Made by a program: the position numbers and the translations under genes. Positions 6,461 through 29,511 of a stretch of DNA of 32,000 nt are shown piece by piece. The DNA is taken from NCBI GenBank assembly GCA_020160975.1, contig JAIUPJ010000001.1:330001-362000 (forward strand), read 5' to 3'. This stretch comes from Candidatus Saccharimonadota bacterium. Lineage in GTDB: Bacteria; Patescibacteriota; Saccharimonadia; Saccharimonadales; Saccharimonadaceae. How positions within the stretch are numbered: the stretch's first letter is position 1; every line of letters starts with the position of its first letter. The notes beneath the pieces are model-generated. The model saw only the letters and a list, made by a program, of their open reading frames with translations. It was not told the origin of the DNA and did not search any database.

Positions 6461-8467
<2,007 letters not shown>

Positions 8468-25485: not shown

Positions 25486-27297
25486 CTACAGCTCCTTAAG
25501 GTATGTAGACAGATTGTCGAGTGGAACTTTCTGCTCACCTTCTTGAGTACGCACACTTACTTCCCTGGCTTCAACATCTTTAGGGCCAACGATAAGCTGC
25601 ACTGGTATTTTCCATGCCGTTGCTTCGCGAATCTTCTTGCCTAATGATTCATTACGACTATCGATACTGTATCGTACTTCATTGAATTTTACTGGCTTCA
25701 TCCCAACAGTAGCATCAAGTACCTTTGTGATTTCGCTAACATACTCCATGACTTGGTCATTGATAGTCAAGACTCTGACCTGTTCAGGTGCAATCCAAAA
25801 CGGAAACCATCCGCCAGTGTGCTCAATGTAGACACTTAAGAATCGCTCGAGAGAGCCAAGAGTTGCCGAGTGGAGCATGATTGGACGGGCTGCATTTCCC
25901 TCTTCGTCCGTGTACGTGAGCCCAAAACGCTCAGGCTGCACGAAGTCCAGCTGGACCGTGGCAAGTTGATGCTCTCGGCCAATTGCATCTGTTGCCATGA
26001 AGTCTATCTTTGGCCCATAAAATGCTGCTTCACCATCTTGCTCAAAGTACTCAAGCCCACTCGCGAGCACTGCTTCTTTTAGCTGCGCCTGAGCACTATC
26101 CCATAGTTCACGCTCACCGAGGTACGCGTCAGAATCGTCACGATAGCTCAAACGAACACGAAGTTTCATGTCGAGAGTGCCGTATAGCTCGCGCGCACAA
26201 TCAAGTAGGCCATTCACCTCAGCTCCGATTTGTTCAGGACGGCAGAAGACATGACTGTCATCTTGAGTCAGAGAGCGAACACGGTTGAGACCGCCCAGCT
26301 CGCCAGTCTTTTCATCTCGATAATCTGTCGTCGTCTCAAGGTATCTCACTGGCATATCTCGGTAGCTGCGAGGCTGAGAGGCGTAAATTTGTGTATGATG
26401 GGGGCAATTCATTGGCTTGAGCGCCATTTCGTCGCTCGTCTCCTGACTCTTGACGAGAAAGAGTTCATCACCAAATTTCGCCCAGTGGCCACTTGTCTCA
26501 TAGAGATCTTTCTTGGTGATGTTTGGGGTCCACACCATTTCAAAACCGCGATTTTTTCGAAGTTGGTTTGAGAGCTGTGCCGCTTTTTCACGTAGTATCG
26601 TACCACGCGGCGTAAACATTGGCAGTCCGACCCCTACTAGTGGTGATGTCGTATAGAGGTCCAGGTCTTTACCGAGCTTTCGGTGGTCACGCTTCTTTGC
26701 CTCTTCAAGCATAGTAAGATGCTGGTCGAGCTGCTCCTGAGTCGCAAACGCTACACCATAGAGTCGCTGCATCTGCGGATTCGTCTCTTTGCCACGCCAG
26801 TATGCACCGGCTACTCGCATGAGCTTAAAAGCGCCAACTTTTCCAGTGCTCTCCGCATGTGGCCCTCGACAAAGGTCAGTGAAATCGCCGTCTGTATAAA
26901 AAGAGACTGTGTCGACTGCAGCGTCACCTTCGGCGATTGTCCCCATCTCTGACGCATCAAGGTCTTTGGCAACAGTAGTGCCCGCGCGCTTTAAGTCATT
27001 CAGTAGCTCGACTTTGTAGGGCTGACGCGCCTCTTCGGCCCAGCCGATACCTTCATCGACCGACTTCTCACTTCGCTCAAAAGGATAATCTTTGTTGATG
27101 ATGGTCCGCATCTCTTTCTCGATACGCTTGAAATCACCTTCAGATATTTTGGTCTCTCCAAGATCTATATCATAATAAAAGCCGTTTTCGACGACTGGCC
27201 CCACGCCAAATTTCGCATCTGGCCACAAGTGCTGGACTGCCTGAGCAGTGATATGCGCAAGACTATGGCGCATTGCGTACAGTTGATCTTCGTTCAT
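25486..27297 (-). CDS. thrS: Threonine--tRNA ligase (starts at the editing domain; no N-terminal TGS domain evident)
   Basis: Class II motifs, HSLAH editing motif, and an anticodon-binding C-terminus. I chose ATG 27297 (MNEDQLYAMRHSLAH), which is preceded by AAAAAGGAGCGAAC, rather than the longer track ORF. Confidence 0.93.
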   Translation of the reverse strand: MNEDQLYAMRHSLAHITAQAVQHLWPDAKFGVGPVVENGFYYDIDLGETKISEGDFKRIEKEMRTIINKDYPFERSEKSVDEGIGWAEEARQPYKVELLNDLKRAGTTVAKDLDASEMGTIAEGDAAVDTVSFYTDGDFTDLCRGPHAESTGKVGAFKLMRVAGAYWRGKETNPQMQRLYGVAFATQEQLDQHLTMLEEAKKRDHRKLGKDLDLYTTSPLVGVGLPMFTPRGTILREKAAQLSNQLRKNRGFEMVWTPNITKKDLYETSGHWAKFGDELFLVKSQETSDEMALKPMNCPHHTQIYASQPRSYRDMPVRYLETTTDYRDEKTGELGGLNRVRSLTQDDSHVFCRPEQIGAEVNGLLDCARELYGTLDMKLRVRLSYRDDSDAYLGERELWDSAQAQLKEAVLASGLEYFEQDGEAAFYGPKIDFMATDAIGREHQLATVQLDFVQPERFGLTYTDEEGNAARPIMLHSATLGSLERFLSVYIEHTGGWFPFWIAPEQVRVLTINDQVMEYVSEITKVLDATVGMKPVKFNEVRYSIDSRNESLGKKIREATAWKIPVQLIVGPKDVEAREVSVRTQEGEQKVPLDNLSTYLKEL

Positions 27298-27314
27298 GTT
27301 CGCTCCTTTTTTAT

Positions 27315-27404
27315 AAATAAAAAACATGCGGTGAATAGATTTCATCAAGTGCAATCTATATATCGCATGTCTCGGTCCACATATGTGCTGTGGAGGTTCC
27401 ACCG
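27315..27404 (-). promoter_or_regulatory. thrS leader: T-box-like antiterminator motif plus intrinsic terminator
   Basis: The minus strand reads CGG-UGGAACC-UCCACA-gcacaua-UGUGGA-CCG (27373-27404), a helix with a 7-nt UGGNACC bulge. This is followed by the terminator CATGCG..ATAGATT-loop-AATCTAT..CGCATG plus T6 (27315-27369), directly before the Shine-Dalgarno sequence. Confidence 0.4.
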
Positions 27405-27648
27405 AAAACTTTTACTCTTTGAGTTGCGTTGACGCACGCATCTCGCTACCCGGCGAAGCTCCAGAGGTGGTTAGACTCCTTCATTGCTTGTATTTATACT
27501 AGCAAATCTGCAGATAATTGCAACTTCCGCCTCTGTTTGCTATAGTGTATGAAGTTCTTTTGTAGCTGAAGGAAAAAGAGCAGACCGAGCGAAAACCACG
27601 CTTTTCGCCCGGTGCGATGAGAAAAAACGAAGTTTTGTCTCCATTTCA

Positions 27649-27725
27649 GGGCGATTAGCTCATTTGGCTAGAGCGCGACATTGACGTTGTCGAGGTGAGA
27701 GGTTCGAATCCTCTATCGCCCACCA
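27649..27725 (+). tRNA. tRNA-Val (anticodon GAC), CCA encoded
   Basis: GGGCGAT TA GCTC ATTTGGCTA GAGC G CGACA TTGACGT TGTCG AGGTG AGAGG TTCGAAT CCTCT ATCGCCC A CCA. Confidence 0.95.
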
Positions 27726-27729
27726 AGAT

Positions 27730-27760
27730 AAAAATACCGCCATTATGGCGGTATTTTTAT
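27730..27760 (+). terminator. Rho-independent terminator after tRNA-Val
   Basis: AAAAATACCGCC-ATTAT-GGCGGTATTTTT. Confidence 0.7.
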
Positions 27761-27916
27761 TTCGGTGCGGTGCGTTTATACAACGAAGTCCGAACTTATT
27801 TTGAGCGTGAGGACTGAGCGAAGCTCGCCCCACCAGAAAAACTAATTCTTTGATTATCTTTTTTGAATTTCCCCGCCGAGATTTTTTGCAACTGAAAAAA
27901 ATTAGTCTTTCTGGAC

Positions 27917-27957
27917 GGTGCGACTACTGATGGCGAGCTGTGGGATTGGAAAAAACA
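27917..27957. repeat. 41-bp terminal inverted repeat, left
   Basis: The reverse complement of ggtgcgactactgatggcgagctgtgggattggaaaaaaca matches 28937-28977 at 40/41 positions. Confidence 0.92.
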
Positions 27958-27976
27958 ATCATAACAGATGCGATTA

Positions 27977-28005
27977 TTGACATATTATATGTTTTGTTCT
28001 ATAAT
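27977..28005 (+). promoter_or_regulatory. Consensus sigma70 promoter inside the cassette
   Basis: TTGACA (27977-27982), a 17-nt spacer, then TATAAT (28000-28005). Confidence 0.6.
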
Positions 28006-28164
28006 TAAATATGTGTATCGAGGGAGTTTGATTTAACCTCGCTCGCGTACATTTACAAGTCCTCTGTTAATACAGGGTCTTGGTTGAGGTTTTATATCGA
28101 TGAACTATCGTCTATATACATCCTCAACTGAGGAAACCCAGCAACCGAGTGAATGGAGTGAGCC

Positions 28165-28812
28165 ATGCTGGAGCTCGAACACGGCGTCGTGAAGTTCTTC
28201 GACGACCGAGACGGCAAGAAGTTCGGCTTCCTGAAGGTCCTCAACGAGGACGACCAGGAGACGGGCGAGGAAATCTTCTTCCACTTCAACGACGGCCAGT
28301 TCGTCGACATCGTGGGAGGAGACGAGATTCAGTTCGTCGGGCGCGTCTTTGCGGAGAATGGGCTGCACATGTGGCACCCCAAGATCGGCGACAAGATCGC
28401 TTTTGACGTGACGGCCGGCAAGAATGGCCGCGACAAGGCATGTCCGTGGACGTATGCTGAGGGGTACGACAACCGTGTGCGCAAGCTCACGGAGCCGTAC
28501 TACCGCGTCACCAAGGTGACCAAGCTCGGCTACGGCGGACCTGGCGACACGTCAGATGTGATCTGGGAGGGTCAGGGTTCGGACGAGTTGTCGGGTGAGT
28601 ACCCCATTCGGGTGCTGGACGGCAAGCTCGATGACCCGCTGGCTCGTTCGGTCAACTTCGCTGCTGGCAGCACCACGCGCTACGTCTTCGAGGTGTACGT
28701 CGACGATGACATCGTCGACGGCACCTACGGTGGCAGTGTCGTGGTTCCGGGTGGATGGGTGGAGTGCGAAGACCCGCGCTTCCGCGCCGAGCTGGCTCGC
28801 GAGCTGAGGTAG
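28165..28812 (+). CDS. Cold-shock-domain (CSD)-like N-terminus fused to an uncharacterised ~140-aa acidic C-terminal region; probably horizontally acquired
   Basis: GVVKFFDDRDGKKFGFLKV...EEIFFHFND resembles the CspA RNP1/RNP2 motifs (KGFGFI, VFVHF). GGAG lies 6 nt upstream of the ATG. GC3 is 18/20 in the first 20 codons, against 9/20 for comM. Confidence 0.7.
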   Translation: MLELEHGVVKFFDDRDGKKFGFLKVLNEDDQETGEEIFFHFNDGQFVDIVGGDEIQFVGRVFAENGLHMWHPKIGDKIAFDVTAGKNGRDKACPWTYAEGYDNRVRKLTEPYYRVTKVTKLGYGGPGDTSDVIWEGQGSDELSGEYPIRVLDGKLDDPLARSVNFAAGSTTRYVFEVYVDDDIVDGTYGGSVVVPGGWVECEDPRFRAELARELR

Positions 28813-28936
28813 TCTCCTCGCGGCAACAGAGGACTTCCAGGAGAGAGGGAAAAGACTTGAGTGCATTTTTGCTCTCGTCCAATCTCTTTCTCCTGGCAGT
28901 TCCCAAAATCATTAAGAAAGTAGTGATTTTAGAAAC

Positions 28937-28977
28937 TGTTTTTTCCAATCCCACAGCTCACCATCAGTAGTCGCACC
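28937..28977. repeat. 41-bp terminal inverted repeat, right
   Basis: tgttttttccaatcccacagctcaccatcagtagtcgcacc is the partner of 27917-27957. Confidence 0.92.
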
Positions 28978-29043
28978 AAAAGAAAGGGTCCGGCATTTAT
29001 GTCGGTTCTTTTCTTTTTTGAATAGCGCGATAAACTTAAACAT

Positions 29044-29097
29044 ATCGCCTACCATACAAAGAGGACCCGACAGGGTCTTTTTTGTATGGTAGGCGAT
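29044..29097. other. Long near-perfect hairpin (about 26 bp stem, GACA loop)
   Basis: ATCGCCTACCATACAAAGAGGACCC-GACA-GGGTCTTTTTTGTATGGTAGGCGAT. The 17 outer base pairs are perfect. Confidence 0.8.
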
Positions 29098-29235
29098 TCA
29101 TTAATTTTAAGAAGTATCGCTTTGACGTATTCCTTTCTTATTTTTCCCACACCACCAAATACTTTTCCACATCATTATTTCCATATTTTCATCTTTAATA
29201 TTCACCTCATGATATATGATAATCATCCCGTAGAC

Positions 29236-29264
29236 TTGACATTTTTTGCTGCTTGTGCTAATAT
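29236..29264 (+). promoter_or_regulatory. Near-consensus promoter positioned for a leaderless mRNA
   Basis: TTGACA (29236-29241), a 17-nt spacer, TAATAT (29259-29264), then 6 nt to the ATG at 29271. Confidence 0.55.
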
Positions 29265-29270
29265 GTAACC

Positions 29271-29393
29271 ATGAGTAAAATCTCAACTAAATCCATAAAA
29301 ACATCCGCACTCGACTCCTTTAGCCTTTCCTTCGAGTACGACATGAGTTGGCACGAAGCAAAGAAGTCGATCAAGCTCCGCTCTGCCTCATAA
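29271..29393 (+). CDS. Candidate 40-aa small protein (MSKISTKSIKTSALDSFSLSFEYDMSWHEAKKSIKLRSAS)
   Basis: It is below the ORF-track cutoff. It is framed by a strong promoter and a terminator, and the TAA stop is at 29391-29393. Confidence 0.45.
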   Translation: MSKISTKSIKTSALDSFSLSFEYDMSWHEAKKSIKLRSAS

Positions 29394-29418
29394 ATTGAAG
29401 CAGAGCTCCCCATCAATC

Positions 29419-29452
29419 AAAAAGCCGCCCTTTCTGTGATCGGGCGGTTTTT
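29419..29452 (+). terminator. Rho-independent terminator
   Basis: AAAAAGCCGCCC-loop-GGGCGGTTTTT. Confidence 0.6.
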
Positions 29453-29511
29453 GCTGTATTTTTTCATTTTATCTAATCCCTTTTACAACCTCTCCCCACT
29501 TCAAGAAACTT

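What the first reader, a model, noticed from the sequence alone, without database searches (positions are those of the whole stretch)
27917..28977. IR-bounded, transposase-less cassette carrying a GC3-rich cold-shock-domain fusion gene next to tRNA-Val
41-bp inverted repeats (40/41 match) at 27917-27957 and 28937-28977 enclose a single 215-aa ORF. Its codon usage is foreign to this genome: 18 of the first 20 codons end in G/C, against 9 of 20 for comM, and spurious antisense ORFs are typical of high-GC DNA. The protein has a CspA-like N-terminus (KKFGFLKV, IFFHF) fused to an acidic ~140-aa region that I cannot place. The architecture (IS-like ends, passenger gene, no transposase) matches what have been called mobile insertion cassettes. 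The location is the usual island site beside a tRNA. Saccharibacteria live on high-GC Actinobacteria, so the host is an obvious candidate donor. That would make this a host-to-episymbiont gene transfer packaged in a mobilisable cassette. No clean target-site duplication is visible; the flanks are ...tctttctggac / aaaagaaaggg....
Basis: partly seen in the sequence, partly recalled or inferred. Interest (0 to 1): 0.8.

Follow-up and report, generated by a model that had tools for sequence, protein, structure and literature searches.

The report
Repeat-flanked GC-rich cold-shock-domain gene unit
The inverted repeats and the GC-rich gene are real, but the gene is an old, native gene of these tiny bacteria that carries its own promoter, structured RNA leader and terminator; it was not borrowed from the actinobacterial host, and I found no evidence that the repeats are working transposon ends.

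Summary
Observation confirmed. The 41-nt inverted repeat (40/41), the single 215-aa ORF, its GC3 of 0.83 (other window ORFs 0.37-0.63) and tRNA-Val 192 nt upstream are all there.

The interpretation mostly fails.
- The protein is a divergent cold-shock domain plus a beta-rich C-domain with no known relative. Its family was found only in CPR bacteria, with no actinobacterial, phage or plasmid hit.
- The GC3 excess is a family trait. It appears in 23 of 23 loci from several CPR phyla (mean +0.21) and persists at dS of about 1. It stops at the start and stop codons.
- The unit is a complete transcription unit: a 12/12 sigma-70 promoter, a roughly 150-nt leader with a covarying hairpin that is not in Rfam, the CDS, a conserved 3'UTR and a terminator.
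- Arms in close relatives share the inner boundary but run from 0 to about 170 nt with unrelated sequences. The window's left arm is the end of an intergenic repeat, X, and the right arm is an inverted partial copy of it.
- I found no second copy, no empty site and no cognate transposase. The IS30 elements in relatives are independent insertions inside the leader.

A decayed insertion-cassette origin is not excluded (about 0.25). Interest is moderate.

The parts
27649..27725 (+). tRNA-Val(GAC)
   Evidence: ARAGORN; Rfam tRNA at 62.9 bits.
27721..27767 (+). Hairpin plus T-run directly after the tRNA, a likely tRNA terminator
   Evidence: Inverted repeat I3, 23-nt arms, 91% complementary. The sequence is followed by TTTTTATTT.
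27776..27916 (+). X, a member of a dispersed intergenic repeat family of this Saccharimonadia clade
   Evidence: Homologous copies lie upstream of the unit in L008. They lie in inverted orientation downstream of it in L044 and L048. A copy lies downstream in L005, and there are two copies without any CSD gene in L056. Between species X is 80-90% identical.
27917..27957 (+). Left arm of the 41-nt inverted repeat. The outer 15 nt (27917-27931) continue repeat X. The inner 26 nt (27932-27957) end in the A-tract 20 nt upstream of the -35 box.
   Evidence: L056 X copies continue GGTGCGCC / GGTTCGAC plus a small hairpin. The inner ~24-26 nt are recognisable in L044, L048, L008 and L005.
27977..28005 (+). 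Sigma-70 promoter TTGACA-17-TATAAT
   Evidence: 12/12 match to consensus. The -35 and -10 boxes align in 8 divergent loci.
28020..28022 (.). GAG trinucleotide used as insertion target by two different IS30-family elements in relatives. It is uninterrupted in the window.
   Evidence: L001/L002 carry a 1.07-kb insert and L006/L007 a 1.12-kb insert at this nucleotide. The two transposases are 32% identical. The L001 copy matches NCBIfam IS30.
28045..28138 (+). Conserved part of the 5' leader: a GTACATTTACAAG box and a 23-bp hairpin (about 28079-28133) with an invariant base, GGUUGAGG...CCUCAACYGAGGAA
   Evidence: Covariance model R1 scores 88 bits here and hits all Saccharibacteria family loci. 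On 13 sequences, 91.9% of cells pair and 11 pairs show compensatory changes; 0/500 shuffles reach this and slid controls pair at about 42%. RNAalifold agrees. Leader fold z = -3.8. Nothing in Rfam at E<=1.
28165..28812 (+). CDS, 215 aa: divergent cold-shock domain (about residues 1-100) plus a beta-rich C-terminal domain with no known relative. GC3 0.83.
   Evidence: AF2 pLDDT 91.7. Foldseek matches only the N-terminal part, to Lin28/CspB CSDs. Profile against PDB gives CSD hits at E 3e-4 to 0.1 on residues 4-65. dN/dS 0.11-0.44.
28813..28894 (+). 3'UTR with a conserved CCAGGAGAGAG...CTCTTTCTCCTGG segment
   Evidence: The sequence is conserved down to L014, which shares only 38% aa identity (read). 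Not analysed further.
28895..28945 (+). Intrinsic terminator: hairpin GGCAGTTCCCAAAATCA...TGATTTTAGAAACTGT followed by a T-run
   Evidence: RNA fold -14.4 kcal/mol, z -3.1. The homologous hairpin is seen in L048 (-29.4), L060, L014 and L023. The last stem bases and the T-run are the inner end of the right repeat arm.
28937..28977 (-). Right arm of the inverted repeat, an inverted copy of 27917-27957 with one mismatch (T for C)
   Evidence: The same mismatch is fixed in all contigs of the species. In L044 and L048 the corresponding right flank continues into a full inverted X copy.

Best explanation
The 1,061-bp segment is a self-contained, single-gene transcription unit: a consensus promoter, a ~150-nt structured leader, a 215-aa cold-shock-domain fusion protein, a conserved 3'UTR and an intrinsic terminator.

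The gene belongs to an uncharacterised protein family that I found only in CPR/Patescibacteria. Its GC-rich third codon positions are a long-standing property of this gene family. They are kept up at the codon or mRNA level in every lineage examined. They do not mark a foreign donor.

The 41-bp inverted repeat is most likely not the end of an insertion sequence. Its left arm is the end of the neighbouring intergenic repeat X plus the A-tract region in front of the promoter. Its right arm, which begins in the terminator's T-run, is the surviving inner end of an inverted second copy of that same flank. The common ancestor of this subclade most likely had X-arm-unit-arm'-X'. The window keeps the whole left copy and only 41 nt of the right one.

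The two arms have probably been kept nearly identical by gene conversion between them. The repeat has no demonstrated role in expressing the gene.

Inferred function (not shown): the protein binds single-stranded RNA through the conserved RNP1- and RNP2-like surface (KFGFL, IFFHF). The leader hairpin, whose CCUC strand can pair with any of three GAGG/GGAG motifs, sets translation, possibly as autoregulation.
For: Complete unit:
- Promoter is a 12/12 match.
- Leader hairpin has 11 compensatory pairs, and 0/500 shuffles reach the observed values.
- Terminator hairpin plus T-run.
- Promoter, leader and 3'UTR are alignable across loci whose proteins share 42-60% identity with the window's.

Native family:
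- 39 clusters, the only one carrying an organism name being Candidatus Saccharimonas sp..
- 5 of 6 genome loci are in Saccharimonadales, Moranii-, Levyi- and Woesebacteria and WWE3.
- 887 representative clusters in the 50%-identity library.
- Nothing in phage or plasmid collections.
- dN/dS 0.11-0.44.

GC3 as a family trait:
- 23/23 loci exceed their neighbours, mean +0.21, Wilcoxon p 2e-7. Gene GC3 tracks host GC3, r 0.66.
- GC3 stays at 0.74-0.87 while dS reaches about 1.
- The enrichment is limited to the CDS.
- A-ending codons make up 5%. infC in the same window shows only a C-over-T preference.

Repeat as flank duplication:
- Arms are 41 nt (window), 26 nt (L048), 14 nt (L008), about 170 nt of unrelated sequence (L005/L006) and none (L045, L060, L019-L024), all with the same inner boundary.
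- The X+arm and the L005 arm are not similar beyond chance.
- In L044 and L048 the right flank is the reverse complement of the window's left flank over 174-182 nt.
- X exists without the gene in L056.
- The window arms differ at 1/41, while the L044 arm differs from them at several positions.
Against: - The inner ~24-26 nt of the arms share a consensus, GGYGRGCTG..GGGATTKGWAAAA, across lineages whose outer flanks differ on both sides. That is also what transposon ends would look like.
- Removing the unit plus one AT restores a perfect 28-bp palindrome, GGTGCGACTACTGATCAGTAGTCGCACC. It starts exactly where X copies in L056 begin their terminal hairpin. This fits an insertion into a palindrome.
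- The unit lies in both orientations relative to X and in unrelated gene neighbourhoods.
- The ancestral X-arm-unit-arm'-X' state is inferred by parsimony from five incomplete contigs, and L044's left flank is not known.
- The cause of the GC3 excess is not identified.
- Nothing about the protein's function or the leader's role has been tested.
Confidence: 0.5

Rival explanations
1. It is, or recently was, a non-autonomous terminal-inverted-repeat element, i.e. a mobile insertion cassette. About 26-bp ends bracket the promoter-gene-terminator unit. It was inserted by a transposase supplied in trans into the centre of the small palindrome that ends repeat X. This would give a 15+26 = 41-bp apparent repeat and a 2-bp AT duplication. 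That signature is described for IS30-type insertion at nearly palindromic hot spots (PMC9333248).
For: - Inner boundaries are conserved while flanks differ on both sides.
- The repeat tips share a consensus in window, L044, L048 and L008.
- The outer 15 nt begin where L056 X copies begin their terminal hairpin, and the reconstructed target is a perfect 28-bp palindrome.
- The unit lies in both orientations relative to X.
- In L048 a tRNA terminator abuts the repeat tip exactly.
- The gene is patchily distributed and absent from this site in the species whose GT2 is 83% identical.
- IS30-family elements are active in these genomes.
- Insertion sequences that target extragenic palindromes are known (PMC1525189).
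Against: - No second copy in the window, in 383 kb of related loci or in two collection scans.
- All 17 contigs of the species have it in the same place and orientation.
- AT is its own reverse complement, so the '2-bp duplication' cannot be told from a 2-nt longer repeat.
- The ends resemble neither of the two IS30 elements seen.
- The ~170-nt arms in L005 and the full inverted X in L044/L048 need extra events.
- The more distant relatives carry the same transcription unit with no terminal repeats.
Confidence: 0.25
2. It is a recent gene transfer from a high-GC actinobacterial host into the episymbiont, with GC3 as the donor's signature.
For: - GC3 of 0.83 is far outside the window's range.
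- Other GC3-rich genes, some with Ala-rich signal peptides, are scattered in related Saccharibacteria contigs, so some high-GC imports may exist in these genomes.
Against: - No homologue outside CPR-type contigs.
- The GC3 excess is present in 23/23 loci, including phyla with GC3 backgrounds of 0.29-0.38, and it scales with the host.
- It persists at dS of about 1.
- GC2 is only 0.37, and the UTRs inside the cassette are AT-rich.
- The promoter, leader and terminator are conserved within Saccharibacteria.
Confidence: 0.03
3. It is a programmed invertible segment (inverton) flipped by a recombinase acting on the repeats.
For: - Inverted repeats bracket the unit.
- The unit is found in both orientations relative to X in different species.
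- The near-identity of the arms suggests recombination between them.
- A resolvase-family fragment lies 0.8 kb upstream of the copy in L045.
Against: - The unit has its own promoter and terminator, so flipping would not switch it.
- No invertase gene lies next to it in the window or in L001.
- The only nearby recombinase is a Xer-like integrase about 6 kb away.
- 17 contigs of the species show one orientation only.
- L045 has no repeats at all.
Confidence: 0.05

Closest known systems
Mobile insertion cassettes (MIC231 of Bacillus cereus; TnXax1-derived MICs of Xanthomonas, PMC4337579)
   Same: One or a few passenger genes between short inverted repeats, with no transposase inside.
   Different: Known MICs carry the ends of an identified insertion sequence or transposon present in the same genomes. 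They are delimited by target-site duplications and occur in several copies or sites. Here the ends match no insertion sequence seen, no unambiguous duplication exists, only one copy is known, and the repeat length and sequence change between close relatives.
IS30-family insertion at nearly palindromic hot spots, and insertion sequences that target REP palindromes (PMC9333248, PMC1525189)
   Same: The reconstructed site without the unit is a perfect palindrome, with a possible 2-bp duplication at its centre. The palindrome belongs to a dispersed extragenic repeat.
   Different: The unit encodes no transposase. Its ends are unlike those of the two IS30 elements found in relatives, and those elements instead insert inside the unit's leader with 3-bp GAG duplications.
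cspA-type cold-shock genes with long regulatory 5'UTRs (Rfam cspA thermoregulator, recalled as RF01766; established knowledge of E. coli cspA)
   Same: A cold-shock-domain protein gene with a strong promoter and a conserved, structured leader of about 150 nt.
   Different: There is no Rfam match at E<=1. The leader is a single long hairpin with a conserved GAGG/CCUC base. The protein is three times longer and has an extra C-terminal domain. The CSD falls below Pfam's cut-off.
Quasipalindrome / template-switch inverted duplications (my own recollection of the Ripley and Lovett work; not checked in the paper library)
   Same: A short pre-existing inverted repeat (the A-tract before the promoter and the T-run of the terminator) could seed copying of one flank in inverted orientation onto the other side. 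That would give arms of arbitrary length with a fixed inner boundary.
   Different: The loop here is about 1 kb, much longer than in the classical cases. The mechanism is inferred from end-products only.

Membership tests
Mobile insertion cassette (MIC) | Passenger gene(s) between inverted repeats, with no transposase inside | tested here: met
   41-nt repeat and a single 215-aa ORF with no transposase domain.
Mobile insertion cassette (MIC) | Ends related to those of an insertion sequence or transposon present in the same or related genomes | tested here: not met
   The ends of the two IS30 elements in L001 and L006 are unrelated to the arms. No other occurrence of the arms in 383 kb of loci. 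Only a limited set of sequence could be searched.
Mobile insertion cassette (MIC) | Target-site duplication | tested here: inconclusive
   None at the 41-nt boundary. At the 26-nt boundary, AT/AT is possible, but AT is self-complementary and so cannot be told from repeat extension.
Mobile insertion cassette (MIC) | Several copies, or presence/absence polymorphism with an empty site | tested here: not met
   One copy in the window. All 17 contigs of the species carry it. The related species lacks synteny, so there is no clean empty site. Collection scans found 0 matches.
Mobile insertion cassette (MIC) | Mobilisation in trans by a cognate transposase | not testable with these tools
   This needs an experiment, or read-level evidence of excision or insertion.
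Cold-shock domain proteins (Pfam PF00313) | Score above the Pfam gathering threshold | tested here: not met
   15.4 bits against a cut-off of 27, E 0.018. Two distant family members do carry a precomputed PF00313 hit.
Cold-shock domain proteins (Pfam PF00313) | Five-stranded OB-fold barrel with RNP1- and RNP2-like aromatic motifs | tested here: met
   AF2 model at pLDDT 91.7 with beta strands 5-59. Best structural matches are Lin28, CspB and CRHSP-24 CSDs at weak E-values. Profile hits to CSD chains. G21, F22, F38, F39 and H40 are invariant or nearly invariant.
tRNA-linked genomic island (integrase-mediated) | Integrase gene plus a direct repeat of the tRNA 3' end at the far boundary | tested here: not met
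   No integrase between thrS and GT2. No direct repeat of the tRNA end. The unit starts 192 nt after the tRNA, beyond the tRNA's terminator and repeat X.
Inverton (recombinase-flipped segment) | Adjacent invertase, and both orientations within a population | tested here: not met
   No invertase next to it. A single orientation in 17 contigs of the species. Read-level data were not available.
Rfam RNA families (including cspA thermoregulator) | Covariance-model match to the leader | tested here: not met
   No relevant match at E<=1 across 27000-29500.
IS30 family (the inserts in L001/L002 and L006/L007, not in the window) | IS30-type transposase, terminal inverted repeats of about 20-30 bp, and a 2-3-bp duplication | tested here: met
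   NCBIfam NF033563 at 176.5 bits against a cut-off of 80. HTH_38 plus rve domains. Terminal repeats of about 21-28 nt and a GAG duplication, read.

The most novel reading that the evidence does not exclude
The unit is a codon-recoded, self-contained stress or RNA-chaperone module that spreads among CPR genomes as a discrete cassette and lands in extragenic palindromes, often just after tRNA genes. In this reading, selection holds its G/C-ending codons in place in every host. Possible reasons are that its mRNA then escapes binding by its own A/U-preferring cold-shock domain, or escapes an A/U-specific RNase. The covarying leader hairpin, shared with at least one other GC3-rich gene (L023 7067-7756), would define a small post-transcriptional regulon.
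Probability: 0.15. Interest if true: 0.7.

Novelty: new variant of a known kind. Interest (0 to 1): 0.4.

Why it matters
The attractive claim was a host gene packaged in a mobilisable cassette inside an episymbiont. It does not hold, and that matters. A GC3 outlier beside a tRNA and between inverted repeats is a textbook picture of a recent import, yet here it is a false positive for horizontal transfer.

What remains is still useful.
- A large uncharacterised CPR protein family (887 clusters at 50% identity) combines a cold-shock domain with an unknown beta domain.
- Every sampled member out-scores its genome in GC3, across several CPR phyla. Mutation bias or amelioration cannot produce that pattern, so it points to codon- or mRNA-level selection in organisms that cannot yet be manipulated genetically.
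- A new, well-supported structured leader RNA is a candidate cis-regulator for these organisms.
- The locus gives a compact natural series for studying how inverted repeats grow and decay around a gene. Arms run from 0 to about 170 nt, the unit lies in both orientations, and two different IS30 elements hit the same trinucleotide.

Tried and rejected
- Rfam at E<=1 over 27000-29500 found only the tRNA.
- PADLOC, PHROGs and NCBIfam gave no hit for the protein.
- tblastn against phage and plasmid collections found nothing.
- An exact-pattern scan for the repeat, GGTGCGACYACTGAYGGYGRGCTG, found 0 hits in JGI metagenome contigs and IMG/VR. Even L001's own JGI contig was not returned, so that collection is incomplete for this purpose.
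- I tested whether the IS30 transposase in L001 is the cognate transposase. Rejected: it has its own ends and a GAG duplication, and it interrupts the leader.
- I tested whether the window-type flank (X+arm) and the L005-type arm are diverged copies of one long terminal repeat. Rejected: the local alignment score lies within shuffles.
- I tested whether the leader occurs in front of the other GC3-rich genes or in other CPR phyla. It was found only at L023 6913-7002.
- Empty-site search through GT2 orthologues: the same species always carries the unit, and the species at 83% identity has different neighbours.
- RNA-level pairing of the two arms in the mRNA is unlikely, because the promoter lies downstream of the left arm.
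- Ordinary translational selection as the sole cause of the GC3 excess does not fit. infC, rpmI and rplT reach only 0.55-0.60 and keep A-ending codons.
- Literature searches for GC3-outlier genes or cold-shock-domain fusions in CPR found nothing relevant.
Full report
1. The observation

The repeat is real. Arms at 27917-27957 and 28937-28977 are 41 nt long, 40/41 complementary and 979 nt apart. A 33-nt core occurs only at these two places in the window, with none in 100 shuffles. Between the arms lies one credible ORF, 28165-28812 (+), 215 aa, plus overlapping spurious ORFs.

Its GC3 is 0.83. Every other ORF of at least 120 aa in the window has GC3 of 0.37-0.63, and the ORF's GC2 is an ordinary 0.37. 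GC of 0.60-0.65 is confined to the CDS. The non-coding DNA inside the repeats is 0.38-0.46. tRNA-Val(GAC) lies at 27649-27725 on the same strand. The immediate flanks carry no direct repeat.

2. What lies between the repeats

The segment is a complete transcription unit with these parts:
- A perfect sigma-70 promoter, TTGACA-17-TATAAT, at 27977-28005 (12/12).
- A leader of about 150 nt.
- The CDS.
- A conserved 3'UTR.
- A terminator hairpin at 28895-28940 followed by a T-run.

The T-run and the last stem bases form the inner end of the right arm. The matching A-tract of the left arm sits 20 nt upstream of the -35 box.

3. The protein

- Pfam gives only a sub-threshold CSD match.
- An AlphaFold model built on 31 homologues is confident (pLDDT 91.7).
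- Its N-terminal ~100 residues match Lin28, CspB and CRHSP-24 cold-shock domains at weak E-values. A family profile hits CSD chains in PDB on residues 4-65.
- The RNP1- and RNP2-like residues G21, F22, F38, F39 and H40 are invariant or nearly so.
- The beta-rich C-terminal half matches nothing in PDB, BFVD, Pfam, NCBIfam, PHROGs or PADLOC.
- dN/dS against seven relatives is 0.11-0.44, so the gene is under purifying selection.

4. Who has it

- A search of 5.8 billion proteins found 39 clusters. The only one that carries an organism name is Candidatus Saccharimonas sp..
- A scan of one genome for each of 185,579 species found six loci. Five are in Saccharimonadales, Moraniibacteriota, Levyibacteriota, Woesebacteria and WWE3. 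The sixth is a low-GC bin labelled Gammaproteobacteria.
- A metagenome scan added 19 more distant loci.
- A profile search of 1.84 billion representatives found 887 clusters, most with the same two-domain length.
- No phage or plasmid record holds it, and no actinobacterial relative appeared anywhere.

5. The GC3 anomaly is a family trait

In 23 independent loci the gene's GC3 exceeds the mean of its neighbours every time. The mean excess is +0.21 (Wilcoxon p 2e-7), and gene GC3 tracks the host background (r 0.66). In Saccharibacteria the gene sits at 0.74-0.87 against 0.39-0.68. In other phyla it sits at 0.41-0.63 against 0.29-0.49.

GC3 stays high while synonymous divergence reaches about 1. 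In the window's gene, A-ending codons make up 5% of codons, with 12/12 Lys as AAG and 4/4 Gln as CAG. infC, rpmI and rplT in the same window reach only 0.55-0.60. infC prefers C over T but keeps A-ending codons.

Three things argue against a recent import and for a codon- or mRNA-level constraint: the sharp limits at start and stop codons, the ordinary GC2, and the AT-rich, Saccharibacteria-conserved promoter, leader and 3'UTR. The cause of the constraint is not identified.

6. A conserved structured leader

The promoter and leader align across loci whose proteins share 42-60% identity with the window's. RNAalifold predicts a long hairpin (window about 28079-28133) with 11 of 21 pairs showing compensatory changes.

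A covariance model built from nine sequences finds the element upstream of the gene in every Saccharibacteria locus. It also finds it upstream of one other GC3-rich gene (L023 6913-7002), but not in other phyla.

On 13 sequences, 91.9% of cells pair and 11 pairs have double changes. No shuffle of 500 reaches the observed values, and slid controls pair at about 42%. Rfam has nothing there.

The invariant base of the stem pairs GGUUGAGG with CCUCAACC and is followed by GAGGAA. The Shine-Dalgarno GGAG lies about 35 nt further on. A switch in which CCUC pairs alternatively with one of these motifs is my inference only.

7. The transposase seen in relatives is not the cassette's

In L001/L002 (same species, protein 99% identical) a 1.07-kb IS30-family element lies inside the unit at window 28020-22. 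It has its own ~28-nt ends and a GAG duplication.

In L006/L007 (unit about 86% identical) a different IS30 member interrupts the same trinucleotide. Its transposase is 32% identical to the first. This is a hot spot just after the promoter. The ends of both elements are unrelated to the 41-nt arms.

8. How the arms behave in relatives

Close relatives share the inner boundaries of the unit but not the arms.

| Locus | Arm length | Note |
|---|---|---|
| window, L001-L004 | 41 nt | left arm continues repeat X |
| L048 | 26 nt, 22/26 complementary | left end abuts a tRNA terminator |
| L008 | 14 nt | left flank like the window, right flank like L005 |
| L005, L006 | about 170 nt | 54 nt at 91% plus 116 nt at 79%; sequence unrelated to the window's |
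| L045-47, L060, L019, L021, L023, L024, other phyla | none | same transcription unit |

The window's left flank, X (27776-27916), belongs to a dispersed intergenic repeat family. L056, from a species whose GT2 is 83% identical, has two copies and no CSD gene. Those copies continue GGTGCGCC or GGTTCGAC plus a small hairpin, exactly where the window's arm begins with GGTGCGAC.

In L044 and L048 the right flank of the unit is the reverse complement of the window's X+arm over 174-182 nt. In L048 the left end abuts a tRNA 3' end and its terminator.

Taking the relationships of the units into account, the simplest ancestor is X-arm-unit-arm'-X'. The window keeps the full left copy and 41 nt of the right copy.

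The window's arms differ at one position, which is fixed in the species. They differ from the L044 arm at several positions. I infer that the arms are being homogenised by gene conversion.

9. Tests of mobility

- There are no further copies of the 26- or 41-nt ends in the window, in 383 kb of fetched loci, or in scans of JGI metagenome contigs and IMG/VR. The JGI collection evidently lacks even L001's contig.
- All 17 contigs that encode the identical GT2 carry the unit in the same place and orientation.
- In the species at 83% GT2 identity, a 293-aa gene of ordinary GC3 lies beside GT2, and thrS and tRNA-Val are not adjacent. No clean empty site was obtained.

Some observations favour past relocation as a unit:
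- The inner ~24-26 nt of the arms share a consensus across lineages.
- The unit lies in both orientations relative to X and in unrelated neighbourhoods.
- Deleting it together with one AT leaves a perfect 28-bp palindrome. Insertion at nearly palindromic hot spots with a 2-bp duplication is described for IS30 (PMC9333248). Insertion sequences that target extragenic palindromes are also known (PMC1525189).

AT is self-complementary, however, so this 'duplication' proves nothing. By the published description of MICs (passenger genes between IS-related repeats, delimited by target duplications, activated by a cognate transposase; PMC4337579), only the bare architecture is met.

10. Verdict

The cassette reading is unproven, and I put it at about 0.25.

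My best account, at 0.5, is a native, accessory, self-contained cold-shock-domain gene unit lying between inverted copies of an intergenic repeat, the right copy now reduced to 41 nt.

The features worth carrying forward are the family-wide GC3 excess, the new leader RNA, and the IS30 hot spot.

Noticed in passing
window 28020-28022; L001 4788-5855; L006 414-1536: Two IS30-family elements whose transposases are only 32% identical are inserted at the same GAG trinucleotide, about 15 nt after the -10 box of the unit's promoter. They occur in two lineages, each with a GAG duplication. The window reads GAGGGAG where L005 reads GAG, which may be an excision footprint.
   Followed up: partly
window 27776-27916; L056 1-200 (reverse strand) and 6900-7110: X is a dispersed intergenic repeat of this Saccharimonadia clade. 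In the window, L056 copy 2, L005 and L008 it lies upstream of a gene in the same orientation, and it ends in GGTGCGMC plus a small hairpin. Between species it is 80-90% identical, more than the synonymous sites of the neighbouring CDS. It may be functional (regulatory DNA or a small RNA).
   Followed up: partly
L019 3530-3646(-), 5371-5754, 6855-7619, 8866-9168, 9999-11015; L021 7108-7923(-); L023 7067-7756: Related Saccharibacteria contigs hold a class of other genes with GC3 of 0.76-0.89 interspersed among genes at about 0.5. Two of them have Ala-rich signal peptides. The L023 gene shares the CSD gene's promoter and leader.
   Followed up: partly
window 27649-27725; L048 1-40; L021 5665-5741; L013 5752-5824: In four independent contexts a tRNA gene lies directly upstream of the unit on the same strand, followed by a terminator where the sequence was read (window, L048). 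The identified tRNAs differ (Val, Pro, Gln); the one in L048 is cut off at the contig end and unidentified. By a rough estimate this is more often than chance would give.
   Followed up: partly
window 28813-28894: The 3'UTR (CCAGGAGAGAG...GACTTGAGTGCATTT...CTCTTTCTCCTGG) is conserved down to L014, whose protein is only 38% identical. It looks like a second structured element before the terminator.
   Followed up: no
window 29236-29393: A 40-aa ORF (29271-29393) lies behind a TTGACA-17-TAATAT promoter with almost no leader. The region is about 70% identical in L056.
   Followed up: no
window 29044-29097: A 25-nt-arm hairpin (92% complementary) has T-runs on both sides, between the unit and the convergent GT2 gene. 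It is probably a bidirectional terminator.
   Followed up: no
L045 113-412: A resolvase-family (PF00239) gene fragment lies 0.8 kb upstream of a repeat-less copy of the unit.
   Followed up: no
contig lengths; L011, L012: Many Logan contigs holding close homologues are 984-1078 bp long. L011 (1055 bp) begins and ends with the same 30 nt in inverted orientation. These look like assembly unitigs cut at inverted repeats of at least 31 nt, so such repeats are probably present in several more lineages.
   Followed up: partly
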